DNA of 64,000 bases from positions 3,212,477 through 3,276,476 of the forward strand of contig OY282430.1 of the NCBI GenBank assembly GCA_958296025.1. Direction: 5' to 3'. A program made the position numbers and the translations under genes. The notes under the pieces are model-generated. The model was not told where the DNA came from and ran no database searches. It worked only from the letters and a program-made list of their open reading frames with translations. Shown here in pieces: positions 10,214 to 63,900 of this stretch (positions are counted from its first letter, which is position 1; each line of letters begins with the position of its first letter). Origin of the DNA: an uncultured Pseudomonadales bacterium. Its GTDB lineage: Bacteria > Pseudomonadota > Gammaproteobacteria > Pseudomonadales > Azotimanducaceae.

Positions 10214-11269
10214 TCAGGCATCTAAGCGGGCGAGGAATTCCCGCCCCGTCTCGCAGCGCACGATCAGCTCGCCAATTTCCTCAAGGTGGTCGGAGTCCGC
10301 GACGTCCTCCAGCAACTCCGCAGCGCGGTCAGCGGTGTCCTCACCGAACCGCACAGTCGCCAATCGGCGCAGCAGCGCCCGCTGGCGCTCAAGCCCCTGC
10401 TCAAGGCCCTGCTCGCGGCCCTGCTCAAGGCCCTGCTCGCGGCCCTGCTGAATCCACGGCTTGGGCCACTCCGCCACACGCTCCTCAAGGCTCATCTCAT
10501 CAAGCGTCATCCTCACATCCTCCAAGTCCAAGCCCGGAGGCGGCGAATCCGCCGCCTCCGGCTGCAACCGCCGCGCCAGCCGCCACAGCCAGTCCGCAAA
10601 CGCACGGCGCAACTCCGCATCCCCCGGCTCCCGCAGCCAGCCCTGCAGCGACGCCGCCACCAGGCGCAGGTCCTCCGGAGAACGGCTGCGCTCCATCCGC
10701 GACACCGCGCCGACCAGGTTGCGCAGGGGCAAATCATCTTCCCGCAGACGCTGCAGGTCAACCACCAGATAGCGCTGCGAGGGCTGGTGGGGTGCCAGGG
10801 ACAGCCCCGTCGGCGCCACTAGGTCCCGCACGTCCGTGGCCGCCGACCAGCGCGGCCCACCGTTGTACAGCACCACCGGCAGCACCGGCGGGCGCAGGCC
10901 GCCCGGGCCAAGGCCGCTACGGGAAAGCTCCCGGTACAGCAGCACGGTGTATTCCAGAATGCGCAGCGCCATGTCCGGCTCGCTGCGGGACTGAAACTCC
11001 AAGAGGATCAGGACATGCAGCCAGTCCCCGTCCAAGGGCAGCCGCCACACCGAGTCGCCGAGGCGCTTGCGCAGGTCGTCGCCGACGTACTCGGCGGGGG
11101 CCTTGCGCAAGGCGGGGAAGTCCGCCCGCTGAATCCAGTCGCCCTTGGCGAAGCCGCGCAGCAGGTCCTCCACCATGCGCGGGAAGGCGAAGATGCGCTT
11201 GTAGATTGGGTCGTTCACGGGGCCAAAATAGCCCCATGTCAAGGGCGCGTCTGTACGCCAAGGATGCAT
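10214..11269 (-). CDS. Rpn-family recombination-promoting nuclease / putative transposase (YhgA-like PD-(D/E)XK) with DUF4351-type C-terminal tail
   Basis: DPIYKRIFAFPRMVEDLL, HVLILLEFQSRSEPDMALRILEY, LPVVLYNGGPRW. C-terminal ...LLRRLATVRFGEDT...IVRCETGREFLARLDA. Start taken at ATG 11269 (MHPWRTD...). Confidence 0.85.
   Translation of the reverse strand: MHPWRTDAPLTWGYFGPVNDPIYKRIFAFPRMVEDLLRGFAKGDWIQRADFPALRKAPAEYVGDDLRKRLGDSVWRLPLDGDWLHVLILLEFQSRSEPDMALRILEYTVLLYRELSRSGLGPGGLRPPVLPVVLYNGGPRWSAATDVRDLVAPTGLSLAPHQPSQRYLVVDLQRLREDDLPLRNLVGAVSRMERSRSPEDLRLVAASLQGWLREPGDAELRRAFADWLWRLARRLQPEAADSPPPGLDLEDVRMTLDEMSLEERVAEWPKPWIQQGREQGLEQGREQGLEQGLERQRALLRRLATVRFGEDTADRAAELLEDVADSDHLEEIGELIVRCETGREFLARLDA
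10388..10450. repeat. In-frame tandem repeat (24-nt unit ctgctcaaggccctgctcgcggcc, about 2.5 copies) inside rpn
   Basis: Encodes QGREQGLEQGREQGLEQGLE on the minus strand. Confidence 0.85.
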
Positions 11270-11554
11270 TTTGCGTAGGAGATCGGCGCTTTGACGCTGC
11301 AGGAGGCGCATTGAAGGCAGGTGCATGATTGCTGCGAAGGCGCTCCTGCAGGGAGGGGGCATCGACCGTGCCGAGGCAGATGGCGTCACAGCGAATGCCT
11401 TGGGTGACCGGGACGGGAAACCAGCCCACCGCCTTGCGGGTGTGGCTGGGGAGGTGCTCGCTTTTTATGTTGTGCAGGTGGACATGTTCTCCAAGTGTAG
11501 CGCCCCGCCAGCAAAAACAGTCGAAGTCCCCATGCTCCATCGCTGGTCAGCGAT

Positions 11555-52976: not shown

Positions 52977-53426
52977 TCAAACCGCCCGCGCCTCCACCAC
53001 CACTGCGACGGCCGCCGCACGGGTGAGGTCGGCGGCGTTCGGGGTCCGATCCTTGTTCAGCTTGACCTCATGGTAGGCGGCGTCTTGCGGGTATTCGGCG
53101 AGGTACGCCTTCAGCAGTTCCTCAATGCGCTGCGGGTCGTCCAAGATGACGTCGGCCCGGTAGCGCCCTTCGGCACCGCGGATGGCGAGTGTCACTTCCG
53201 CGCCACCCACTAGGTTGCGCCACCAACGGGTGTGGCGGGAAGTGAAGCAGCGCACCGTTGCGCCGTCCCGAACATAGCGCACCGGCGTGGTGTAGGAACG
53301 GCCCGTGCGCCTGCCGACGAAGGTGATCAGCAGCAGGCTGCCGCTCATCAGGAAATGCAGCGGGGAGCGCAACAGCAGGGCCATCATCGGGTTGATGAAC
53401 TTGAACAGAGGTTCGGGAATTTTCAT
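52977..53426 (-). CDS. DUF385 / deazaflavin-dependent nitroreductase-family (split-barrel) protein, copy 1
   Basis: MKIPEPLFKFINPMM..., FVGRRTGRSYTTPVRYV, TRWWRNL. ATG 53426. Confidence 0.65.
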   Translation of the reverse strand: MKIPEPLFKFINPMMALLLRSPLHFLMSGSLLLITFVGRRTGRSYTTPVRYVRDGATVRCFTSRHTRWWRNLVGGAEVTLAIRGAEGRYRADVILDDPQRIEELLKAYLAEYPQDAAYHEVKLNKDRTPNAADLTRAAAVAVVVEARAV

Positions 53427-53595
53427 GGCGCATCCTGATCTTGCTGAGGGGGAGTAATGGTAGCAGCCAATCCCGGCGCCCTGCCCAACGGCATGACCAT
53501 CGAAAAGATGAAGAGCGGATAGCAAACGCCGCGCAACTTCAACAGGGTCCGCATCCTACCGAACTACGGCGTGGCGGGTGGAGCGCCGGGATGGG

Positions 53596-53655
53596 GCGTC
53601 GCTGGCGGACTACGAACGGATGTTGGCGCAGGAGAAGGGAGCAAGAGAGATGACG
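53596..53655. repeat. Short fourth copy of the rpn-derived repeat (LADYERMLAQEKGAREMTTL segment) at the tandem-duplication junction
   Basis: ctggcggactacgaacggatgttggcgcaggagaagggagcaagagagatgacgacgtt also occurs at 54622 and 56954. Confidence 0.8.
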
Positions 53656-53677
53656 ACGTTGATTCGGCCAAAACCCC

Positions 53678-54127
53678 TCAAACCGCTCGCGCCTCCACCA
53701 CCACCGCAGCGACCGCCGCACGGGTTAGGTCGGCGGCGTTCGGGGTCCTGTCCTTGTTCAGCTTGACCTCATAGAAGGCGGCGTCCTGCGGGTATTGGGT
53801 GAGGTACGCCTTCAGCAGCTCCTCGATGCGCGGCGGGTCGTCCAGGATGACGTTGACCCGGTAGCGCCCTTCGGCACCGCGGAGTGCGAGCACCACTTCC
53901 GTGCCGTCCGCGAGGTCGCGCCACCAGCGGGTTTTGCGGGAACTGAAGCAGCGCACCGTTGCGCCGTCCTGAACATAGCGCACCAGCTTGGTGTAGGGGC
54001 GGTTCGTGTATTTGCTGACTAAGGTCATCAGTAGCAGGCTGCCGCTCATCAGGAAGTGCAGCGGGGAGCGCAGCAGCCGAACCATCATCGGGTTGATGAA
54101 TTTAAGCAGAGGTTGGGGAATTTTCAT
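53678..54127 (-). CDS. DUF385 / deazaflavin-dependent nitroreductase-family protein, copy 2
   Basis: Paralog of 52977..53426 (MKIPQPLLKFINPMM...). ATG 54127. Confidence 0.65.
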   Translation of the reverse strand: MKIPQPLLKFINPMMVRLLRSPLHFLMSGSLLLMTLVSKYTNRPYTKLVRYVQDGATVRCFSSRKTRWWRDLADGTEVVLALRGAEGRYRVNVILDDPPRIEELLKAYLTQYPQDAAFYEVKLNKDRTPNAADLTRAAVAAVVVEARAV

Positions 54128-54289
54128 GGCACATCCTGATCTCGCTGAGGGGAAGTGATGATAGCAGCCAACCCCAGCACCCTGCCCAACGGCATGACCA
54201 TCAAAAAGATGAAGAGCGGGTAGCAAGCGTCGCGCAACTCCAACAGGGTCCGCATCCTACGGGACTACGGCGTCACGGACGACCGCGGC

Positions 54290-54997
54290 ATGGGCATCCG
54301 CCGCAAGGTCATTCCGCTGATGCGGGAACACAACGGCTGCGAGCCGGAGTTCGAGGCGGCGGAAGACTACTTCCGATGGCGGGCCTATGTTGTGATTGAC
54401 TATCCGAAGCTTGCCGGCGACCATGCGCTCATGCGCCGGCTGCTGCCGGACAACCGCCAGGCGGCGCTGATCCGCTTGGAGAGCGCCTCCGGCGACGACG
54501 TGCCTAGGCTGCTGGCGGCGGCGTTCCAGCGGTGGAGCGGGCCGGAGTCAGGGGGGCTGCGTCGGGGCTTCCACGCCCGGGCCGAGCATTTGCTGCGGCG
54601 GCGGGGATTGGCGCTGCCGCCGCTGGCGGACTACGAACGGATGTTGGCGCAGGAGAAAGGAGCAAGAGAGATGACGACGTTAATGGAGGCGAGGCTGCAG
54701 GAATGGCACGACAACGCCATTGCGCAGGGTGTGCGGCAAGGTGTGCAACAGGGGATGCAGCAAGGGGTGCGGCAAGGCTTACAGCAGGGGGTGCGGCAAG
54801 GCGTCCACCAAGGCCAAACGGACCTGCTGCGCCGCCAAGCGGAGCGGCGCTTTGACGCGGAAACCGCCCGGCGGCTGTCGGCCCTGCTGGACGGCGCCGA
54901 CGCGGACCGCTTGATTGAGGTGGGCGATTGGATTGTCGAGTGCAGCAGCGGCGACGAACTGCTGGAGCGGCTCCGCCAAGCCGGCGGGTTGGCCTAG
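54290..54997 (+). pseudogene. 5'-truncated rpn paralog lacking the PD-(D/E)XK core; retains the middle region and DUF4351-type tail
   Basis: Aligns by eye to the intact Rpn from VIPLMREHNG (= LPVVLYNGG) to the tail. Rpn-like sequence (RVRILRDYG = LRILEYT) continues upstream of the ATG to a stop at 54221. The catalytic EFQ strand and everything before it are missing. Confidence 0.55.
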
Positions 54998-55125
54998 CGA
55001 CTCCCCGTTAATAGGTCCGCGACCACCTCGCTGCCGCATGCGTCAAAACGACCGCGACGTCCTTAAGACGTGCTCGCCGATGTAGCTGAGGATCAGGTTG
55101 GTCGATATGGGGGCGAATTCCCCGC
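54615..55125. repeat. Direct repeat A (~510 bp): rpn 3' part, spacer, and the 3' end of a convergent unknown gene
   Basis: Collinear with 56947-57455, with only scattered mismatches. Confidence 0.9.
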
Positions 55126-55197
55126 GAAGGCGAACCTTGTCAATGGGGAAGGGAGTGGCGGTTGTGGCCTGCATACGGAGTTGTACACTGCGTTCTC

Positions 55198-55947
55198 ATG
55201 AAACAACCTTCACGATTCAGCGCCGCTGAGCGTCCGCGAGACTCATCCATCGTCTTAAGGCCGCTTTGGGAGCGCACTGAGGTCATTCCCATGCGGCATC
55301 CACCTGTTGAACCCCAAGACGGGCGGTGGGACTTGAGCGACACCGAAAACCAGTTGCTGCCGGATGGATACTGGGGCATTTGGGTGCCGCCCACCACTGT
55401 GGAACGGCATGTCACTGGGCTGGAGATGCTAAACCTTCCCGGCGAGCCTTGCGGCGATTGGCGAGGGCATGGGGTATGGCTGTCGCGCAACTTTGCCGAC
55501 GACATGGGGCGCCGTCTGTGCGTCACCTTGTCCAAGGCGGGGCCCTTGTCCGTCCATGCGTTGTTGGGTGCGCAGGGCGTCGCGGACATCCGCCCGCGCT
55601 TGGCGCTGGCCGGGCATCCCGCCGCCCGCCGCAGCGTTCCCGTATGGGGGGCGTCACATGCCCGGGCGGCTTTGGAGTGGGCTTGGGATGCGTTAGTGGA
55701 GACCGCGGAGGGAAGTGCGCCCGACGGCAGTGAGTTGGCGGAATGGCTGTCCGATGCGCAGGCCGATGAGTTGACGCACATGGCGCATAGGTTAGTCCGG
55801 GCGCATCCCGACCCGGACATCGCCGCCGTTTGGCTGCAATGGGTGGAGCAGTCGTTGCATCCTCCAGACCGTCGCGGGGCGGCGGCGGTCGGCGTCCAAC
55901 CGCGCAGGATCAATTTGCCACCTCGAAAAACTGAGGTTGTCACATGA
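55198..55947 (+). CDS. Hypothetical protein, upstream partner of the AbiEii-like gene
   Basis: ORF with ATG 55198 (TTG 55162 also possible). Its stop overlaps the next start (ATGA at 55944-55947). No HTH or other motif recognised. Confidence 0.55.
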   Translation: MKQPSRFSAAERPRDSSIVLRPLWERTEVIPMRHPPVEPQDGRWDLSDTENQLLPDGYWGIWVPPTTVERHVTGLEMLNLPGEPCGDWRGHGVWLSRNFADDMGRRLCVTLSKAGPLSVHALLGAQGVADIRPRLALAGHPAARRSVPVWGASHARAALEWAWDALVETAEGSAPDGSELAEWLSDAQADELTHMAHRLVRAHPDPDIAAVWLQWVEQSLHPPDRRGAAAVGVQPRRINLPPRKTEVVT

Positions 55948-56921
55948 CGGCGGCGATGGACTTGCCGTCACTGCTGCCGCCCGTACCAGAGTCGCCTGAC
56001 GGCCGGGACGCATGGTGGGAAGGCGTCCTGCATCGGGCCATTGCGCTGGCGCAGCACCAATTGGAAGGGCAAGGCTCGCCCGCCATCCTGCTCGGCGGCA
56101 CCGCTGCCCGCCTATGCTACGGATTGTCGAGGCCATCCCAGGACATCGATTTGGACCTGCTTCACCAAGATGGGGATGTGGCGTCAGCAATCAGCACAGG
56201 CTTCACGCAAGCCCAAAAGGAGCTGGCTGCGTCGGTGCATTGGCCAAAGCGCCGCCATGGACGGGGCTTTGAGGTGCGGTTGTCGCATCCTCGCTTTGGC
56301 GGGCGCACCTGCTCAGTGGACACTAGAGTGTTGCGCGGCGATGCTGCCGAGACGGCGGAACATCAGCTGTCCATATTGGCGGCGGGCCTGCGAGTGTATC
56401 GGCCCGATGAACTGGTGCGTCAAAAAATGGCGCTGGCAATCGATACCAAAGAGCGTCGGCGGGGGCGGGACCGATATGACCTGGCGTGGTGGCTGACGAA
56501 TCGAATGGAGTGCGCGGCACCCAACGACCGCATTGCACTGAGCCATGCACTGTCCGAAAGCTCCATCTTGCAAGAGGCTTGGGACCGTTCCCATCGTAAG
56601 GACGCCATCCTGAGCCGCGTTCCTCCCCAAGCGGTGCAGGCGGCGCTGGATGCCGCCTTGGCGTCCGACCCAATCGTGCTGCTGAGCCGTCATCCGCAAG
56701 GCTCCGTCACCATCGACGCATCCATGCAAGAGGGGTGCCGTCTTCTCTGGCGGGACGAGCCGCATGCCACGAAGCGTTTGTTGCGGCAGTTCCCTTCCGC
56801 ACAAAGGTGCATTCGCCATCTGCAGGCGATTGGCTGGTGCGACGAGGGGGATGCGAATTCGTTGCTGCGTCAATCCCTAGGGCAGGCGGGCACACCCTTA
56901 GTTGCGCCGTCGCCTTCATAA
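55944..56921 (+). CDS. Nucleotidyltransferase of the AbiEii/AbiGii toxin family
   Basis: LLGGTAARLCYGLSRPSQDIDLDL (GGTA...S.DIDL NTase motif) and KMALAIDTKERRRGRDRYDLAWWL (K...R.RD.YDL). Confidence 0.7.
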   Translation: MTAAMDLPSLLPPVPESPDGRDAWWEGVLHRAIALAQHQLEGQGSPAILLGGTAARLCYGLSRPSQDIDLDLLHQDGDVASAISTGFTQAQKELAASVHWPKRRHGRGFEVRLSHPRFGGRTCSVDTRVLRGDAAETAEHQLSILAAGLRVYRPDELVRQKMALAIDTKERRRGRDRYDLAWWLTNRMECAAPNDRIALSHALSESSILQEAWDRSHRKDAILSRVPPQAVQAALDAALASDPIVLLSRHPQGSVTIDASMQEGCRLLWRDEPHATKRLLRQFPSAQRCIRHLQAIGWCDEGDANSLLRQSLGQAGTPLVAPSPS

Positions 56922-56946
56922 AGCCCGGCACCCAACTACTGGCCCG

Positions 56947-57455
56947 GCCGCCGCTAGCGGACTACGAACGGATGTTGGCGCAGGAGAAAGGAGCAAGAGA
57001 GATGACGACGTTGATGGAGGCGAGGCTGCAGGAATGGCACGACAACGCCATCGCGCAGGGGGTGCGGCAAGGTGTGCAGCAAGGCTTGCAGCAGGGAGTG
57101 CGGCAAGGCTTACAGCAGGGGGTGCGGCAAGGCGTCCACCAAGGCCAAGCGGACCTGCTGCGCCGCCAAGCGGAGCGGCGCTTTGACGCGGAAACCGCCA
57201 GGCGGCTGTCGGCCCTGCTGGAAGGCGCCGACGCGGACCGCTTGATTGAGGTGGGCGACTGGATTGTCGAGTGCGGCAGCGGCAACGAACTGCTGGAGCG
57301 GCTCCGCCAAGCCAGCGGGTTGGTCTAGGCACTGCCTCTCAATCAGGCCGCGACCACCCCACTGTCGCATCCGCGTCAAAACGACCGCGGCCTACCCAAG
57401 ACTTGCTCTCCGATGGAGCTGAGGATCAGGTTGGTGGAGATGCGGGCGGTCCGGT
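56947..57455. repeat. Direct repeat B (~510 bp), partner of 54615-55125
   Basis: See repeat A. Confidence 0.9.
56972..57328 (+). pseudogene. Free-standing rpn 3' fragment (DUF4351-type tail only, 118 codons from an internal ATG)
   Basis: MLAQEKGAREMTTLMEARLQEWHDNAIAQGVRQG...RLIEVGDWIVECGSGNELLERLRQASGLV. About 95% identical to the tail of 54290..54997. Confidence 0.5.
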
Positions 57456-57504
57456 AGAGGCGGATTTCGCGGAAAATGGCCAAGATCGGCCAAAAAAGAC
57501 CTTG

Positions 57505-57696
57505 ATGCCGGCTCGGGTCAACGAAATCGTCCGCGGCCGTCGCGGCACTACCGCTGGAACGGCGTTGCGCCTTGCCCGGTACTTCAACACCGACGCGCAA
57601 AGCTGGATGAACCTTCAGAGTCAGTATGAACTGGCACTTGCGGCCCGGGAGGCCGACGACTCGCTGGCGGCAATCCGGCCGCTGCAAGTAGCCTAA
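57505..57696 (+). pseudogene. higA: HigA-type (XRE HTH) antitoxin, N-terminally degraded
   Basis: ARVNEIVRGRRGTTAGTALRLARYFNTDAQSWMNLQSQYELALAA matches the C-terminal two-thirds of HigA. The expected PxHPGEIL...LGxSQ part is scrambled, and no higB is present. Confidence 0.5.
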
Positions 57697-57879
57697 GCGG
57701 CGGCGCTTTCGCTAAGCAAGCAACGCCCCGCGGGCTTTGATGGCCCTACTCCTCGCTTTCACACTACTACCGGCAGCCAGAAAGCGCCCAAAAGCGCCCT
57801 AAGGCGTGTCTAGGATCTTCCTTGCCGGCAGTTTGCTTTGCGCGGCTTGGCTATAATTGTGCTTCCGTCAACCTGGAGA

Positions 57880-58530
57880 ATGACCTTGAAAAAGCTACTG
57901 GCCAATTTGCTGCTTGCCACCGTGCTGCCGGCTTTAGGCCATGCTCAAACCGTGGACATTTGCGGCAGAACGCCGCAAGTGCGCGACGCCATCATGGGGG
58001 ACCTTGGCGCGGAAGACTGCGCCGCCGTGGATTCCGCACAGATGGCCGAATTGCGACTATTTATATTTAGTCGAAACAGGTTGACGGCCTTGCCGGCGGG
58101 CGTGTCCGAAGGCCTGACCAACTTGAACACACTGGAGTTGACGAACAACCGCCTTGTGGGATCGAGCCGGAATGACCCATTGTTTGCCATGCTTCCCAGC
58201 GAGGTTGACTCGGAATCGGAGTGGCAAACCGAAGAGCCGGATGGGCTAGAACCTCCGGCAACACGCCTTGCCAACACCGGGGCGAACGCCGCAAGCGTGA
58301 GCACTGAAGGTGTCGACGGCCAAGGCAACACCGCCGGGCCGGTCACCTTGACGCTGGCCGCCCCAGCCAAGCGGAAAACGACCCTTCCGCCCCTCCCGGA
58401 ATCCGCCCTCGCCCGACTTCCCGGGTCCCAAAAACACAGGATCGAACGCAACAGCTTCGCCAGCAAACGACTCTATAATCACCCCGGCGATCCCATACAT
58501 TCAATTGACTTGAATGCGAAACTCACCTAG
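57880..58530 (+). CDS. Secreted protein with two leucine-rich repeats and a low-complexity C-terminus
   Basis: GGAGA RBS, signal peptide MTLKKLLANLLLATVLPALGHA, LRR units NRLTALPAGVSEGLTNLNTLELTNNRL. Confidence 0.55.
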   Translation: MTLKKLLANLLLATVLPALGHAQTVDICGRTPQVRDAIMGDLGAEDCAAVDSAQMAELRLFIFSRNRLTALPAGVSEGLTNLNTLELTNNRLVGSSRNDPLFAMLPSEVDSESEWQTEEPDGLEPPATRLANTGANAASVSTEGVDGQGNTAGPVTLTLAAPAKRKTTLPPLPESALARLPGSQKHRIERNSFASKRLYNHPGDPIHSIDLNAKLT

Positions 58531-58577
58531 AGTCCACCAGTGCGCCATTTTCCAACCAGCTTGCAAGGAGGCCGCTA

Positions 58578-59933
58578 ATGTCTTCGACCCATACGACAGC
58601 GACGAAAACCCTAAAAAGGCATTTTCTTATACCCATGTGTTGCGTATTTCTTCTCGCTGCATGTGTTGAAAATCCCGAAATCAAATCTGCAAGGGCCAGC
58701 TTGGAGCTTGCAGAAATGAAGGGTGATCTTGACGGCATGTTTCTGTCACTACGGCAGCTAGTAGAACTTGGTGATGAAGCAGCAGCAAATAGCTTGCCTT
58801 TGGTGCGCACAGCCATTGCAGAGCGCGAACGCATGCTTCAATCCCTCGCCGACCACGACCACGAAGGAGCAATCCAGGCAGCAGAGGAGCTGTTGAATAT
58901 AGTTCCGAAGCATAAAGAGGGTCTAAAGGTTCTTCGGGAGTCTGGGCAGATATTTTTCTACCTTAGAGAAGCGAAGCACCTCGTGGTCTCGATCTTTGAT
59001 CAAAGCAATTCTCAAGCAGTTACTATAGAGCCCTTAATGGTTGATGAGTCGCTGCCTGAGGAACAACGTCATGCTTTTATTGTAACGACAATCCAGACGC
59101 TTCTCGAAGAATTGGGCTACTACCACGGCGAAGTCGACGGTGTGGCGGGCCCCGATACGGAAAATGCGCTTGAAGCCTTCCAAAAGGAGCAAAATGAGGA
59201 GGAGACTTTCGACCTTTCTGTGGAAACTGCAAACATGCTGAAGTCCGAACATAGGAAGAGGGAGATGGAAGATAAGGATATCGAAAAGCGGTTTTACGCC
59301 TTTTCTCGTTCACGCAAACTCGTTGACTTAGCAAAAAAACTTGATCCAAACTTCCCGAACGCTATCGAATTTGGAGAGATTATTGACCGTGGACATTCGA
59401 GCCTAGTGTATATAGAGGCTCAAAGGATTATAGCGAAAGGTGCCTTGATGATGGTGAAGGCTGAAATGGTCCATTCCTTAATATCATCGACTCTAGGCAT
59501 CGCTGCTTCTTCTCCTTACGGATCTGTCCAAGATACTTGGAGAAGAATTTCTCCACTTGTTGATGAAATAAGGCAGCCACTAAAGATGGACAAGGAAAAA
59601 TTGGACAATGGTCTGGCTCTTCTCTCCACTTACGAGTCTGGTAGATCCCTTGAATTTGTATCAAATCTCAAGGAATACGTCGTGACAGTCCATGTAGCGA
59701 CAATGGCCTTTTTGGAGCCAAGTGGAAGTCTGGTCGACTTTCGACAAGCAGCAAGCGACGCTACTAGCGAGTATTCACGCGTCAGTGCTAGACTCAATGG
59801 GTCCATGCCTAGTGAAACTCAGATACAGGAGGACTATGAAGGTCTAGCCGCGATCCTTAGTAACCACGCAGTAGTTTCTGACCCGAGAACTGACCAAATC
59901 ATCGCTCGCCATGAAGGGCTTTATACTCTGTGA
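58578..59933 (+). CDS. Lipoprotein with a peptidoglycan-binding (PG_binding_1-like) domain
   Basis: Lipobox VFLLAAC; IQTLLEELGYYHGEVDGVAGPDTENALEAFQ. AT-rich codon usage unlike the core genes. Confidence 0.6.
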   Translation: MSSTHTTATKTLKRHFLIPMCCVFLLAACVENPEIKSARASLELAEMKGDLDGMFLSLRQLVELGDEAAANSLPLVRTAIAERERMLQSLADHDHEGAIQAAEELLNIVPKHKEGLKVLRESGQIFFYLREAKHLVVSIFDQSNSQAVTIEPLMVDESLPEEQRHAFIVTTIQTLLEELGYYHGEVDGVAGPDTENALEAFQKEQNEEETFDLSVETANMLKSEHRKREMEDKDIEKRFYAFSRSRKLVDLAKKLDPNFPNAIEFGEIIDRGHSSLVYIEAQRIIAKGALMMVKAEMVHSLISSTLGIAASSPYGSVQDTWRRISPLVDEIRQPLKMDKEKLDNGLALLSTYESGRSLEFVSNLKEYVVTVHVATMAFLEPSGSLVDFRQAASDATSEYSRVSARLNGSMPSETQIQEDYEGLAAILSNHAVVSDPRTDQIIARHEGLYTL

Positions 59934-59988
59934 GGAATTTTGCAAAATCCTTCTACTTCCGTGGAGTGCGAAGAGGGCGAGAGGTCGT

Positions 59989-60306
59989 ATGAAGGCTAAG
60001 GCATGGAATAACGGAAGATGGTATCCAACCGGAGCAGGGTATGGTATCAAGATATCTGCTGCGGATCGTGATAGGTATTTTCGCCGATGTTGGCCTAACG
60101 TGGACATTGAGCTGCCAAACGGCAACCAAGTCACAGTTAATACCAGTAAGAGGTCCTTCTGGGACGGAACATGCAGGGAGCTAATTCACAAGGATATTGG
60201 TCGATGGTTGATCGATAGCGGTAGAGCCCGATGGCTCCCTGGAAGTTCGCCGGAGTTTCAACTGGTTCCTATGCAAATGAGATGCTTTGTTTTAAAAATG
60301 GGCTAA
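59989..60306 (+). CDS. Small hypothetical protein (105 aa)
   Basis: MKAKAWNNGRWYPTGAGYGIKISAADRDRYF...SFWDGTCRELIHKDIGRWL. Pattern recalled from conserved hypothetical proteins. No function known to me. Confidence 0.45.
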   Translation: MKAKAWNNGRWYPTGAGYGIKISAADRDRYFRRCWPNVDIELPNGNQVTVNTSKRSFWDGTCRELIHKDIGRWLIDSGRARWLPGSSPEFQLVPMQMRCFVLKMG

Positions 60307-60343
60307 AAGCTAGTGTTCTGTTCCATAAATAACTAATATAACT

Positions 60344-60547
60344 ATGAGCGTGTTTAATCCAGAGAATACGCTTATGTCTCGCGATCGATCCACTGTTCCG
60401 ATTGTCCTCGACAATGACGAAAAACACGAATTGCTCGGTATCGTACGCTCCCGCTCACTGCCTCACGCAGTCTTGCGGAAGCGCTTCTGGCAACCAACCA
60501 CATTCTCGCTGGGCAAATTGCCGGCATCGAATTCGAGCAACATGTGA
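60344..60547 (+). pseudogene. Possible IS630-type transposase N-terminal (HTH) fragment
   Basis: PIVLDNDEKHELLGIVRSRSLPHA resembles the start of IS630-family transposases. Similarity is lost afterwards. Confidence 0.3.
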
Positions 60548-60798
60548 GGAACCTAACCAATGCGAAATCGAAAGATTCACTGGGATGGCTGGTTTACCAT
60601 AAGTTGCCCGATATCATTCGGGTACGCTGTTCGGGTCAGAATCAAAGTGAGGAAATTATCAAAAAGTGCAAGATGGCGCACGACGTCCGAAATCAAGCGA
60701 TTCATTTGGATCCTGTGCCAGAAGCGGAGGCCGTCGGGCAGCTACTCGAAGCCATGAAGCTGGTTGGACGGATGAGAATACCTATATCCCAACGGTAA
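60460..60798 (+). pseudogene. HEPN/DUF4145-like remnant (Rx4H motif), 5' end lost
   Basis: In the frame of ORF 60544..60798: ...AEALLATNHILAGQIAGIEFEQHVRNL...CKMAHDVRNQAIHLDP...AVGQLLEAMKLV. The RNQAIH motif fits the HEPN Rx4-6H signature. Only a GTG start at 60544. Confidence 0.3.
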
Positions 60799-60964
60799 AA
60801 GGTTGCCAAAAACCCAACTTCCCCAACGATGAAACCGAGGAAATAGCGGTGCCTTGGGCAGGTACTCTTAGGAATATAAGCGTAGATGAACTCGGCGCTG
60901 AACAGGGGATTAGAGAGGCGATGCTGGTAGAGCGATTTAGCCTGTATTGAGCATTTGCCGCTGG

Positions 60965-62086
60965 TTAGCTGTCCAAGCCCTTGTAAACATCCCGGCGAAG
61001 GCCGAACCGCTCCAAAACAACCCTATGTTCGTGCTTGTCCAGCCAATAGATTATGCGGTAGTCGCCAAGGCGATAGCGCCATCTGCGCCGCTGTCCCTGG
61101 AGCCGCTTAATCGGTTTCCGGGGTGTTGTCGGGTCGCGGCATATGCTCAAAGTCGCCTGACTTATCCTCGTGAACTCACCCATATTCCCATACACCTCAC
61201 TTTGGAAGCGACTGGTGTATGCAAGCTGCCAAGGAAGGCTGTCCGGGCCGATGTCCTGTATTGGCATGCTCTCCGGCGCTTGTTCCGCAACTTCAACCTC
61301 AGCGCTCTCCGAGGGCAACCCCGCCACAGTTTCGCGTAGCGACCGCAGGATTACGGTGCCAAGCTGGTGTTCCGATGGCAAATCGCAGATCCCGTCTTCG
61401 GACAGGCCAAGCAGTTCCGTGGCCACGCACTTTCCGAAGGCAGTGAGCGCATAGTCGCCAGCGGCCATCGCATCGAAGCAGTGCAGCACGTCCGTTTTCG
61501 TCGCCGCGACCTTCTCCCAATCGATCAACCGCCGATAGGCGTCGATAGCAGTCAAGTCGATGATGCGGGCAATTCCGAATCGCTTGATGTAGTCGCACAG
61601 AACATCCGTAAGCAAGGCGTCCTTCCGCCACAGCTCCGCAACCGGCGGTGCCATCGGACAGCTATACAGTTGAATTGGCTCCGTTGGCCGCAGCAGACCG
61701 TACAGACCGGAGATGAACAGGGTGTGGTGTTCGGATTCCGCCAGCCTTTGCTTGCCTTCCGCACCCAACGCCTGGAAGAACCGGCCCTCGTAGCGGTCAA
61801 GCGTCGGCAGATAGGTGGCGGTGTGCCGGCCGCCAAGGTCCGGACCACTGGTGAGTTCCTGGTTGAATGCAAGCTCCGAGACGGGGGCACCCTGCCAACA
61901 AAAATCAGAGGCGCTTTTCACGAGCTGGAAAATTCTTGCTCGCCGCTTGAGAAGCCGGTCTCCTAGGGAGTTCGGCAAAACGGAAGTGATCGCCTGCCCT
62001 GCATCGTACTCGGCGCTGCCGCCTGGCGCCTTGGTGAGTGAGCAGTTGGTCAGGAACAGCACCATGCTCGATGGCTGGTATGGCAT
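60965..62086 (-). CDS. Fusion protein: YaaA/DUF328-DUF6884-like N-terminal module + acidic linker + RelE/ParE-fold C-terminal domain
   Basis: GGAGG RBS 7 nt before ATG 62086. LFLTNCSLTK..., RYEGRFFQAL, LFISGLYGLLRPTEPIQLY (YaaA-type signature). C-terminal WQLAYTSRF...IKRLQGQRRRWRYRLGDYRIIYWLDKHEHRVVLERFGLRRDVY (RelE/ParE signature). Confidence 0.7.
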   Translation of the reverse strand: MPYQPSSMVLFLTNCSLTKAPGGSAEYDAGQAITSVLPNSLGDRLLKRRARIFQLVKSASDFCWQGAPVSELAFNQELTSGPDLGGRHTATYLPTLDRYEGRFFQALGAEGKQRLAESEHHTLFISGLYGLLRPTEPIQLYSCPMAPPVAELWRKDALLTDVLCDYIKRFGIARIIDLTAIDAYRRLIDWEKVAATKTDVLHCFDAMAAGDYALTAFGKCVATELLGLSEDGICDLPSEHQLGTVILRSLRETVAGLPSESAEVEVAEQAPESMPIQDIGPDSLPWQLAYTSRFQSEVYGNMGEFTRISQATLSICRDPTTPRKPIKRLQGQRRRWRYRLGDYRIIYWLDKHEHRVVLERFGLRRDVYKGLDS

Positions 62087-63774: not shown

Positions 63775-63900
63775 GCGCCGGCCGCCCGGTTGGCCCGCAA
63801 CCAGCCTCGCCATCGCATCCGTCTCAAAACGACCGCGACATCCCCAAAACGTGCTCGCCGATGTAGCTTAGGATCAGGTTGGTGGAGATGGGGGCGATGA
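63775..63900. repeat. Third copy (3' part only) of the rpn-derived repeat
   Basis: ...ccgcaaccagcctcgccatcgcatccgtctcaaaacgaccgcgacatccccaaaacgtgctcgccgatgtagcttaggatcaggttggtggagatggggg matches 55017-55125 and 57347-57450. Confidence 0.8.

What the first reader, a model, noticed from the sequence alone, without database searches (positions are those of the whole stretch)
54615..57455. ~510-bp direct repeats precisely bracket a two-gene AbiEii-type cassette
Repeat A (54615-55125) and repeat B (56947-57455) are collinear with only scattered mismatches. Each contains the rpn tail coding region, a ~45-nt spacer and the last ~25 codons of a convergent gene. The 1.8-kb segment between them holds exactly two ATGA-coupled genes (55198..55947 and 55944..56921). 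The arrangement looks like a cassette captured or duplicated by recombination between rpn 3' regions. It is also prone to excision by homologous recombination, giving an on/off defence cassette.
Basis: seen in the sequence. Interest (0 to 1): 0.6.

Follow-up and report, generated by a model that had tools for sequence, protein, structure and literature searches.

The report
Rpn gene-tail repeats flanking AbiE cassette
The two 510-bp repeats are real: each is the antitoxin-coding end of an Rpn defence gene plus a scrap of a neighbouring metabolic gene, and related genomes show that recombination between such copies duplicates, deletes and reshuffles the defence genes lying between them.

Summary
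Window 54609-55115 and 56940-57448 are direct repeats, 91.4% identical over 510 nt. They bracket an ATGA-coupled abiEi/abiEii pair.

Each repeat has three parts:
- the last 128 codons of an Rpn/YhgA-type nuclease gene, meaning the RpnS intragenic-antitoxin part, with a Shine-Dalgarno site, an ATG and QGxx four-residue repeats;
- a 45-nt spacer;
- a dead 3' fragment of an acyl-CoA dehydrogenase (ACAD) gene, whose intact copy lies 14 kb downstream.

The genome holds about 21 rpn tails. Ten independent assemblies carry rpn(-tail) / AbiE / rpn-tail, and in five of them the left copy is an intact rpn, so this is not an assembly artefact. More distant relatives of the cassette lack the repeats.

Recombination between the repeats is documented on an evolutionary scale:
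- G000 itself holds an AbiE-less single-repeat paralogue.
- One relative holds a duplicated unit.
- The DNA following repeat B differs in nearly every genome.

The closest known arrangement is rpn plus a downstream rpnSs copy (E. coli rpnE-ypaA; Zhong et al. 2023). Here the duplicated interval holds defence cargo. The same layout recurs around a type I-G cas module, a Phd/PIN pair and a PD-T4-4-like pair.

I class this as a new variant of a known kind, of moderate interest.

The parts
54609..55115 (+). Repeat A. It comprises the rpn 3' part (last 128 codons), a 45-nt spacer and ACAD 3' fragment type alpha.
   Evidence: BLASTN 91.4% over 510 nt to repeat B. The alpha haplotype and its junction to the cassette are identical in G000, G013 and L037.
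54373..54997 (+). 5'-truncated rpn (copy A). It starts at about codon 173 of a full-length paralogue and lacks the PD-(D/E)XK nuclease domain. The ORF from ATG 54290 (235 aa) begins with about 28 residues that are not rpn.
   Evidence: DNA homology to full-length rpn starts at 54373. There is no PF04754 match for this ORF, whereas the full-length paralogue matches PF04754 at 5e-9. The left copy is an intact 354-397-aa rpn in L037 and L052-L055.
54671..54997 (+). Candidate RpnS-type small ORF of copy A (108 aa). An internal ATG is preceded by AAAGGAG, and the ORF holds 8 QGxx repeats.
   Evidence: The Shine-Dalgarno site and ATG are conserved in all 8 aligned copies. Repeats start about 18 residues after the Met. 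dN/dS is about 0.3. Translation itself is inferred, not shown.
55043..55144 (-). Dead 3' fragment of an acyl-CoA dehydrogenase (type alpha). It comprises the stop plus about 23 codons, an internal deletion, then a further short ACAD piece ending in CCTTGTCAA.
   Evidence: Alignment with the intact ACAD 3' end and five other copies. The intact gene has all Pfam Acyl-CoA_dh domains.
55198..55947 (+). abiEi-like antitoxin gene (249 aa). An alternative start at 55291 gives 218 aa, as called in relatives.
   Evidence: PADLOC AbiEi 6.7e-13; no Pfam family. dN/dS is 0.14-0.41 against five relatives.
55944..56921 (+). abiEii nucleotidyltransferase toxin gene (325 aa), overlapping abiEi by ATGA.
   Evidence: Pfam PF08843 1.8e-13; PADLOC AbiEii 1e-17. 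GGT...DIDLD motif is visible in the translation. dN/dS is 0.13-0.24.
56940..57448 (+). Repeat B. It comprises the rpn tail only (last 128 codons), a spacer and ACAD 3' fragment type beta. The left junction lies 18 nt after the abiEii stop.
   Evidence: The left junction is shared by G000 and L037 and lies at the same point in G013. The right end and its flank differ between genomes.
57002..57328 (+). Candidate stand-alone RpnS-type ORF (rpnSs-like, 108 aa, 8 QGxx repeats). It lies 80 nt downstream of abiEii on the same strand.
   Evidence: The ORF is open in all 10 assemblies (8 distinct arrangements), with 3-8 repeats. No terminator-like site lies between abiEii and the ORF. The AF2 model is all-helical with pLDDT 78.
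57376..57474 (-). Dead ACAD 3' fragment, type beta (stop plus about 33 codons).
57480..57728 (+). HigA C-terminal fragment (profile positions 34-79 of 81) plus 32 nt of its 3' flank. It is a remnant of a HigBA-rpn module.
   Evidence: NCBIfam TIGR02607 5.3e-14, partial match. It is 95% identical to the full higA at genome 3278066-3278359.
53568..53663 (+). rpn scar between the two DUF385 gene copies. An N-terminal rpn piece is joined to the start of the tail through a 10-nt microhomology (CGCCGCTGGC). The joint lies about 14 nt from the left end of repeat B.
63792..63897 (-). A further ACAD 3' fragment (R3). It lies between the DUF6884/GIY-YIG/YaaA-RelE operon and the ATPase-HigBA-rpn module. 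In L037 this position is the intact ACAD gene.

Best explanation
The two repeats are paralogous copies of one unit: the rpn 3' end (its RpnS coding part), the native ACAD downstream spacer, and an ACAD 3' fragment.

How the unit arose (inferred). An rpn gene lay convergent to the intact ACAD gene. Segmental duplications with ragged ends then copied rpn, together with a piece of ACAD, into an array. Defence or toxin-antitoxin cargo genes sit between successive rpn copies.

What the copies are now. Repeat A is the tail of an rpn. That rpn is still intact in five relatives and 5'-truncated in this genome. Repeat B is what remains of a downstream rpn copy reduced to its RpnS part. It is equivalent to the 'rpnSs' genes described downstream of E. 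coli rpnC and rpnE. The AbiEi/AbiEii pair is an independent two-gene module lodged in the interval.

Shown:
- the anatomy;
- the multi-copy family;
- conservation of the arrangement in ten assemblies;
- mosaic tails and swapped flanks;
- one deletion-type and one duplication-type derivative.

Inferred:
- The tails persist because RpnS antitoxin is still made from the internal start. Copy B is probably co-transcribed with abiE.
- Losing the toxin half is tolerated, whereas losing the antitoxin half is not.
- Homologous recombination and gene conversion between tails drive the reshuffling. Stimulation by Rpn nuclease itself is possible but has no evidence here.
- Excision of AbiE is therefore possible but rare. 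It is not a dedicated switch.
For: The rpn family
- The full-length paralogue matches PF04754 Transposase_31 and aligns end to end with E. coli RpnE (E = 7e-8).
- The genome has 16 loci with the N-terminal domain and 21 tail loci. Five loci are tail-only and none is head-only.
- Every paralogue has an internal Met about 18 residues before a block of four-residue repeats.
- AAAGGAG plus ATG is conserved in all A, B and full-length copies.
- Repeat number varies from 3 to 8 between orthologous copies, always in frame.

Selection
- The orphan tails have dN/dS of about 0.3, like tails inside intact genes.
- The pooled excess of synonymous changes gives p = 0.0015.

Origin of the ACAD scrap
- ACAD fragments end at different depths in the gene: 4, about 17, about 25, about 35 and about 52 codons. 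On the other side they always carry the rpn end or the native spacer.
- In AbiE-less relative L059, an intact rpn sits tail to tail with the intact ACAD.

Conservation and reshuffling
- The arrangement is present in G013 (94-95% nt), L037 (96.6%) and L052-L056.
- Spacer and ACAD haplotypes alpha, beta and gamma combine with different left and right modules in different genomes.
- The informative-site strings are mosaic.
- The G000 R4 locus is collinear with an in-silico single-repeat form of L037.
- L056 has two alpha-AbiE units and four tails in a row.

The same layout elsewhere
- rpn::IS / type I-G cas3g-cas8g2-cas7g-csb2 / rpn tail in G000: 438 nt at 83%. In G013 both flanking copies are full-length.
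- rpn / Phd-PIN pair / truncated rpn in G000: 894 nt at 93%.
- rpn / PD-T4-4-like pair / rpn tail in G002: 516 nt at 92%.
- rpn / rpn tail with no cargo in G001.

Published precedent
- PMC10400941 describes RpnS intragenic antitoxins and downstream rpnSs copies.
- It reports loss of rpnSs by deletion or fusion, and rpn arrays made by tandem duplication.
- The E. coli rpnE-ypaA duplication was re-measured here and starts at the Shine-Dalgarno site of the internal start.
Against: - Translation of RpnS from either copy is not shown.
- The tails match Pfam DUF4351 only weakly (4 of 20 paralogue tails, best E = 0.005).
- Profile comparison with E. coli RpnE-S is not significant.
- Foldseek found no PDB match for the model.
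- The low dN/dS of the orphan tails could come from gene conversion from intact paralogues and not from selection on the orphans themselves.
- In G000 both orphans carry 8 repeats, while the closest full-length rpn copies carry 3, 4 and 6. Under the published matching rule they would neutralise none of these.
- The direction of change is unresolved: insertion of AbiE plus a repeat, or its deletion.
- The repeat pairs at the other loci are 83-93% identical. They could be independent paralogues that simply cluster in defence islands. About 1.3 pairs within 12.5 kb are expected by chance against about 6 seen.
Confidence: 0.7

Rival explanations
1. A circular or incoming piece carrying 'rpn tail plus AbiE' integrated Campbell-style by homologous recombination into a resident rpn. 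That created the repeats. The cassette now flips on and off in populations through RecA-mediated excision.
For: - The unit 'one repeat plus cassette' (2331 bp) behaves as an indel between the G000 R4 locus and L037.
- Identical runs of 35-56 nt would support RecA recombination.
- The layout rpn / single cargo / rpn-tail is the exact product of a single crossover.
- An rpn with an AbiE fragment attached occurs at a distant locus in G013 and again inside the island of L056.
Against: - All ten AbiE-bearing assemblies keep the occupied form.
- The repeats are 9% diverged, and the spacer 29%.
- At two parallel loci the downstream copy is full-length in G013. This points to truncation of a second rpn and not to a crossover product.
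- No read-level variants could be examined.
- The first such circle would still need an illegitimate joint.
Confidence: 0.2
2. The ACAD 3' fragments are att sites. The modules are integrative elements that inserted one after another into the 3' end of the ACAD gene through a site-specific recombinase. The rpn tail merely rides along.
For: - Five or more copies of the same gene's 3' end lie in one 17-kb stretch next to the intact gene. This resembles tandem accretion at a gene-3' att site.
- One relative (L055) has a P4-type integrase in the island.
Against: - No PF00589 match lies in the G000 island. The nearest are about 18 kb beyond ACAD and about 95 kb upstream.
- The fragments end at five different depths in ACAD, not at one crossover point.
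- Except at the native ACAD-operon junction (R3), and apart from the gene's own 3' end, they are fused to an rpn end.
- The same unit occurs 2.9 Mb away, next to a SnoaL-like gene, with no ACAD gene present.
Confidence: 0.04
3. The repeats are an assembly artefact, such as a mis-joined or duplicated segment.
For: None was found. The only general ground is that repeats can be mis-assembled.
Against: - The two copies differ at 44 of 510 aligned columns, including a 2-nt indel.
- G000 is a single 3.9-Mb contig.
- The same order is seen in ten assemblies from several samples, eight of them independent of G000 and G013.
Confidence: 0.01

Closest known systems
rpn genes with a downstream rpnSs copy (E. 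coli rpnE-ypaA, rpnC-rpnCSs; Zhong et al. 2023, PMC10400941)
   Same: - The RpnS-coding 3' part of an rpn is directly duplicated, starting shortly upstream of the internal Shine-Dalgarno site and ATG.
- The copies share four-residue repeats of variable number.
- The paper reports loss by deletion or fusion between the two copies, and rpn arrays made by tandem duplication.
- I re-measured rpnE-ypaA. About 167 nt are duplicated head to tail, 84-97% identical, starting at AAAAGGAG.
- A cargo-free example exists in this genus, in G001 (367 nt at 94%).
   Different: - Here the duplicated unit is 2331 bp, not about 190 bp.
- The unit encloses a complete AbiEi/AbiEii pair.
- The repeat carries a scrap of a neighbouring gene (ACAD).
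- In G000, G013 and L056 the upstream rpn has lost its nuclease domain, so both copies are antitoxin-only.
- Tail-to-tail sequence similarity to E. coli RpnS is not detectable.
AbiE (AbiEi/AbiEii) type IV toxin-antitoxin / abortive-infection system
   Same: It is a two-gene operon with overlapping stop and start. The downstream gene matches PF08843 and PADLOC AbiEii and has a GG[ST]...DxD nucleotidyltransferase motif. The upstream gene matches PADLOC AbiEi.
   Different: - The upstream partner has no Pfam AbiEi family match.
- The subfamily is rare: 6 clusters at E <= 1e-5 among 5.8 billion sequences.
- No function was tested.
Variable defence-island hotspots between conserved flanking genes
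   Same: The island lies between a TonB receptor/DUF385 gene and the ACAD gene. Its content differs in nearly every relative: AbiE, HigBA, an AAA ATPase, a PDC-M57-like operon, a 706-aa gene, a 332-aa gene and an integrase element.
   Different: The internal boundaries between modules are not core genes. They are copies of a defence gene's own 3' end, and crossovers map inside them.
Composite transposons (cargo between two IS copies)
   Same: Two copies of a 'putative transposase'-annotated gene lie in direct orientation and flank the cargo. The unit 'rpn plus flank' is found at distant loci.
   Different: - No terminal inverted repeats or target-site duplications are present.
- The 3' limits of the unit are ragged.
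- The published analysis finds no evidence that Rpn proteins transpose.
- Movement here is better explained by homologous recombination.

Membership tests
Rpn / YhgA-like (PF04754 Transposase_31, COG5464) | N-terminal PD-(D/E)XK nuclease domain matching PF04754 | tested here: not met
   Copies A and B have no PF04754 match. Their homology to rpn starts at about codon 173 (A) and about codon 240 (B). The full-length paralogue beside them (genome 3278608-3279660) scores 36.5 bits against a cut-off of 21. Sixteen genome loci pass the cut-off. A and B are therefore fragments of family members, not members in their own right.
Rpn / YhgA-like (PF04754 Transposase_31, COG5464) | End-to-end homology of the parent gene to a characterised Rpn | tested here: met
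   BLASTP of E. coli K-12 RpnE against the full-length paralogue gives 23% identity over 311 columns, E = 7e-8. The alignment covers the N-terminal domain through to the repeat region.
RpnS intragenic antitoxin / rpnSs stand-alone copy (PMC10400941) | Internal translation start with a ribosome-binding site inside the rpn 3' part | tested here: met
   AAAGGAG lies 8 nt before the ATG at 54671 and at 57002. It is conserved in 8 of 8 aligned copies. An internal Met is present in all 20 paralogue tails. This is sequence evidence only.
RpnS intragenic antitoxin / rpnSs stand-alone copy (PMC10400941) | Four-residue repeats that begin 8-20 residues after the initiating Met and vary in number between strains | tested here: met
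   QGxx repeats begin at residue 19. The count is 3-8 among orthologous A and B copies in 8 genomes, always in frame.
RpnS intragenic antitoxin / rpnSs stand-alone copy (PMC10400941) | Sequence or fold likeness to known RpnS (DUF4351, PF14261; three-helix bundle) | tested here: inconclusive
   - PF14261 is hit by 4 of 20 paralogue tails at E >= 0.005, and not by A or B.
- hhalign against E. coli RpnE-S gives probability 7%.
- The AF2 model has one long helix plus three short ones, pLDDT 78.
- Foldseek against the PDB gives nothing with E < 3.
RpnS intragenic antitoxin / rpnSs stand-alone copy (PMC10400941) | The small protein is made and blocks the toxic long form | not testable with these tools
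   This needs tagging or ribosome profiling and a toxicity assay.
AbiE type IV TA / Abi system | AbiEii nucleotidyltransferase (PF08843) with an upstream AbiEi partner in one operon | tested here: met
   PF08843 at 1.8e-13, 51.4 bits against a cut-off of 22.5. PADLOC AbiEii 1e-17 and AbiEi 6.7e-13. The genes overlap by ATGA. Both are under purifying selection.
AbiE type IV TA / Abi system | Toxicity, neutralisation and phage abortive infection | not testable with these tools
   No experiment was possible.
Site-specific integrative element with att in a gene's 3' end | A recombinase gene in the element, and repeats with one precise common boundary | tested here: not met
   There is no PF00589 match in the island. 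The ACAD fragments end at five different depths.

The most novel reading that the evidence does not exclude
Rpn genes, or just their RpnS tails, act as portable homology arms. Pairs of rpn copies in direct orientation form composite units of rpn, cargo and rpn. These units capture, duplicate, delete and exchange defence or toxin-antitoxin cassettes (AbiE, Phd/PIN, PD-T4-4-like, type I-G cas genes) by homologous recombination. The exchange occurs within and between genomes, possibly stimulated by the Rpn nuclease itself. This would be a recombination-based cassette array, distinct from integrons and transposons. The tail-only copies would be kept because they still supply antitoxin.
Probability: 0.2. 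Interest if true: 0.8.

Novelty: new variant of a known kind. Interest (0 to 1): 0.5.

Why it matters
Rpn proteins were only recently shown to be toxin-antitoxin defence genes with an antitoxin encoded inside the toxin gene. How their arrays and extra antitoxin copies arise was left open. The authors speculated that Rpn itself might start the recombination events.

This locus, with its ten sequenced relatives, is a natural time series of those events.
- A scrap of a neighbouring gene marks where the unit came from.
- Crossovers can be mapped inside the tails.
- Both deletion-type and duplication-type products exist.

The locus also shows that other defence systems sit inside the duplicated interval, and this happens repeatedly. 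If the pattern is general, rpn tails would be a source of modular reshuffling of defence islands. Tail-only copies would be a common class of orphan antitoxin genes that annotation pipelines miss or call pseudogenes.

Tried and rejected
- **Assembly artefact:** rejected. The copies differ at 9% of positions and the order recurs in ten assemblies.
- **att-site model:** rejected. There is no integrase in the island, the fragment ends are ragged, and there are no tRNA genes.
- **Known RNA element in the spacer or repeat:** none found. Rfam at E <= 1 gave only a chance snoRNA-like hit. The promoter/terminator scan found nothing useful.
- **Direct proof that the tail is RpnS-like:** not obtained.
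  - Pfam DUF4351 is weak.
  - A sequence search of the PDB found nothing relevant.
  - Foldseek on the AF2 model found nothing.
  - hhalign against E. coli RpnE-S is not significant.
- **Searches that returned nothing:**
  - An exact look-up of the window's AbiEii found no record.
  - The JGI metagenome scan found no relative.
  - Genome contigs gave only G013.
- **Literature:** a search beyond Zhong et al. 2023 for rpn-flanked cargo gave nothing relevant.
- **Matching repeat numbers between A and B:** rejected as a rule. The (A, B) counts are 8/8, 7/5, 5/3, 5/3, 5/8, 5/8, 8/8 and 5/5 across genomes.

Full report
**1. The observation**

A self-comparison of the region gives one strong direct repeat. 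Window 54609-55115 matches 56940-57448 at 91.4% identity over 510 columns.

Identity is uneven:
- rpn-derived coding part: 94.9% (369/389)
- 45-nt spacer: 70.8%
- following 72 nt: 84.7%
- beyond that: noise

Between the repeats lie two ORFs that overlap by ATGA, at 55198-55947 and 55944-56921. The second matches Pfam AbiEii (1.8e-13, above the cut-off) and PADLOC AbiEii (1e-17). The first matches PADLOC AbiEi (6.7e-13) and no Pfam family. The description stands.

**2. What the repeat is made of**

*The coding part.* This is the last 128 codons of a multi-copy gene.
- The genome is one 3.9-Mb contig. It has 21 loci encoding this tail and 16 loci with the matching N-terminal domain.
- A full-length neighbour (genome 3278608-3279660, just beyond the window) matches PF04754 (Transposase_31, YhgA-like) above the cut-off.
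- That neighbour aligns from end to end with E. coli RpnE (E = 7e-8). The family is therefore Rpn.
- Copy A starts at about codon 173 of such a gene and lacks the nuclease domain. Copy B starts at about codon 240.

*Features of the tail.* Both copies keep an internal AAAGGAG plus ATG (at 54671 and 57002) and a block of QGxx four-residue repeats starting 18 residues later. This is the anatomy published for RpnS, the antitoxin translated from inside rpn (PMC10400941).

*Limits of the RpnS assignment.* Direct likeness of the tail to known RpnS could not be shown.
- Pfam DUF4351 is weak.
- hhalign against E. coli RpnE-S is not significant.
- Foldseek found nothing for the AF2 model, which is all-helical with pLDDT 78.

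*The 'convergent gene' end.* This is a dead 3' fragment of an acyl-CoA dehydrogenase.
- The intact 403-aa gene ends with the same residues (...ISTNLILSYIGEHVLGMPRSF). It lies at genome 3283749-3284960, about 14 kb downstream of repeat B.
- The spacer is the native sequence downstream of that gene.
- Including the gene's own 3' end, at least six copies of this piece exist in the genome. Most are fused to an rpn end. They run 4, about 17, about 25, about 35 or about 52 codons into ACAD.
- One copy lies 2.9 Mb away, next to a SnoaL-like gene.
- In a more distant, AbiE-less relative (L059), an intact rpn lies tail to tail with the intact ACAD.

I infer that the unit arose at the ACAD gene and was copied with ragged ends. 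No integrase is present in the island, so an att-site explanation is rejected.

**3. Relatives**

*Where the arrangement is found.*
- G013 is a different species of the genus (OY282455.1, an uncultured Pseudomonadales MAG). It has the arrangement at 94-95% identity.
- The 90%-identity cluster of the AbiEii protein has 17 members on long contigs. I read six of these loci: L037 and L052-L056.
- Every one has rpn or an rpn tail, the alpha-type ACAD scrap, abiEi-abiEii, and then an rpn tail.
- The left copy is an intact 354-397-aa rpn in five genomes. It is truncated in G000, G013 and L056.
- The left junction of B, 18 nt after the abiEii stop, is the same in the genomes aligned base by base.

*What varies.* The right end of B and whatever follows it differ in almost every genome:
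- beta-type scrap plus a HigA fragment (G000, G013)
- gamma-type scrap plus a 332-aa gene (L037, L052)
- no scrap and other genes (L053, L054, L055)
- beta-type scrap plus a 706-aa gene plus yet another tail (L056)

*The cassette on its own.* More distant relatives of the cassette lie in unrelated contexts without any rpn or ACAD sequence. These are L036, L038 and L039, at 77-89% nt, with homology limits of about 55158-56907. The cassette is an independent module, and the repeats belong to the rpn array.

**4. Evidence that the repeats recombine**

- G000's own full-length rpn (R4) is followed by the gamma scrap and a 295-aa gene. In L037 the same two pieces follow repeat B. From the first base of the repeat onward, R4 carries the L037-B variants.
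- An in-silico join of L037's flanks, removing one repeat plus AbiE, aligns with the R4 region as a single HSP across the joint. G000 thus holds both an occupied form and a paralogous single-repeat form.
- L056 holds the opposite product. It has two alpha-AbiE units, the first degraded, and four tails in a row.
- Tails are mosaic between genomes.
- G0_A is closer to G0_B (95.8%) than to its positional orthologue in G013 (93.4%).
- The coding part of the repeat is far more alike than the neutral spacer. Both of these last two points suggest gene conversion.
- A 57-nt remnant of the abiEii 3' end lies upstream of the full-length R4 rpn and of L037's rpn. AbiE therefore once stood upstream of a full-length rpn too, as expected for a tandem array of rpn, scrap and AbiE.

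**5. Are the orphan tails functional?**

For function:
- Both tails stay open in all genomes, despite 12-nt repeat gains and losses.
- dN/dS is about 0.3, like tails in intact genes. The pooled excess of synonymous change gives p = 0.0015.
- In G000, five loci are tail-only and none is head-only. This is the asymmetry expected if losing the toxin is tolerated and losing the antitoxin is not.
- B lies 80 nt after abiEii on the same strand, with no predicted terminator.

Against:
- Gene conversion from intact copies could mimic selection.
- The 8-repeat orphans of G000 match none of its closest full-length copies (3, 4 and 6 repeats). The published work found that repeat number must match for neutralisation.

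**6. The pattern recurs**

| Genome | Left copy | Cargo | Right copy | Repeat |
|---|---|---|---|---|
| G000 | IS-disrupted rpn | type I-G cas3g-cas8g2-cas7g-csb2 | rpn tail | 438 nt, 83% |
| G000 | intact rpn | Phd/PIN pair | 5'-truncated rpn | 894 nt, 93% |
| G002 | rpn | PD-T4-4-like ATPase plus a 157-aa gene, same strand | rpn tail | 516 nt, 92% |
| G001 | rpn | none (as E. coli rpnE-ypaA) | rpn tail | 367 nt, 94% |

- In G013 the cas module is flanked by two full-length rpn copies.
- At the Phd/PIN locus, G013 has Phd/PIN followed by a full-length rpn. That rpn is the orthologue of G000's truncated copy.
- Both comparisons point to an ancestral rpn-cargo-rpn state followed by 5' truncation.
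- G000 has about six tail pairs within 12.5 kb, against 1.3 expected by chance. Clustering in defence islands explains part of this.

**7. Verdict**

The best explanation (confidence 0.7) is as follows.
- A and B are paralogous 'rpn tail plus ACAD scrap' units of a recombining rpn array.
- B is an rpnSs-type remnant of a downstream rpn.
- AbiE is cargo in the duplicated interval.
- Recombination between tails occurs on an evolutionary scale.

Compared with the literature, this is a new variant of the rpn-rpnSs arrangement. It carries cargo, it carries a traceable scar, and its population series shows both reciprocal products. The wider idea, that rpn copies serve as homology arms for defence-cassette exchange, is not excluded. 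I give it a probability of about 0.2.

Noticed in passing
window 52977-54273: There is a tandem duplication (701-bp period, 88% identity) of a 182-aa DUF385/F420H2-quinone-reductase-like gene. The joint holds an rpn scar (53568-53663), in which an N-terminal rpn piece is fused to the tail start through the 10-nt microhomology CGCCGCTGGC. L037, L052-L054 and L056 have one DUF385 copy. L055 has two, like G000.
   Followed up: partly
G000 genome 468206-481168 (locus L041), outside the window: A type I-G CRISPR-Cas locus is split by an rpn gene that is itself disrupted by an rve-type IS. The cas4g/cas1g gene lies on one side. The cas3g-cas8g2-cas7g-csb2 genes lie on the other side and are bracketed by a second rpn tail (438 nt, 83%, direct). 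In G013 (L050) the second copy is a full-length rpn.
   Followed up: partly
G000 genome 3686892-3690083 (locus L042), outside the window: An intact rpn and a 5'-truncated copy (894 nt, 93.3%, direct) bracket a Phd/YefM-PIN toxin-antitoxin pair on the opposite strand. G013 has only Phd/PIN followed by a full-length rpn. That rpn is 97% identical to G000's truncated copy.
   Followed up: partly
L049 (G002:C1:3921000-3927415): An rpn is followed on the same strand by a PD-T4-4_A-like ATPase (PADLOC 7e-37), a 157-aa gene, and then an internally deleted rpn tail (516-nt repeat, 92%). The deletion in that tail starts right after the conserved GDxAW motif, near where the scar in window 53568-53663 starts.
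   Followed up: partly
window 54718-54816 and 57049-57147; loci L037, L052-L056, G013: The number of QGxx four-residue repeats in orthologous rpn tails changes between closely related genomes (3, 5, 7 or 8), always in frame. Within G000 the two orphan tails both have 8, with one residue different. This suggests recent homogenisation.
   Followed up: yes
L024 1937-1993 (window-equivalent 65937-65993) and L037 5799-5853: A 57-nt remnant of the abiEii 3' end (89-91% identical to window 56858-56914) lies between higA and the full-length rpn. It sits about 37 nt before the shared left boundary of the dispersed rpn unit (window-equivalent about 66030).
   Followed up: partly
L023 (G013:C1:1842000-1848000) and L056 6268-6675: An rpn is followed by only 4 codons of ACAD and a 206-258-bp AbiE fragment (window-equivalent 55837-56094). 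In L056 and L053 this AbiE fragment is fused to an ATPase fragment. The same composite scar occurs at a distant chromosomal locus in G013 and inside the island in L056 and L053. 'rpn plus flank' units are therefore copied between loci.
   Followed up: partly
window 57838-61000: An LRR-protein fragment (57838-58530) is followed by a low-GC stretch (43-50% GC against about 63%). The stretch holds a 451-aa protein with a peptidoglycan-binding domain (58578-59933). This block is absent from L037 and looks like a separate foreign insertion after repeat B.
   Followed up: no
L055 11264-15992: In one relative, the DNA after repeat B holds a highly repetitive 938-aa ORF (72-nt period repeats) and a P4-type tyrosine integrase. 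This is the only recombinase seen in any version of the island.
   Followed up: no
window 10223-11464 (-): Another full-length rpn paralogue lies inside the window (genome 3222690-3223940; PF04754 at 6.6e-19). It belongs to a different subfamily, with EQGL-type repeats.
   Followed up: no
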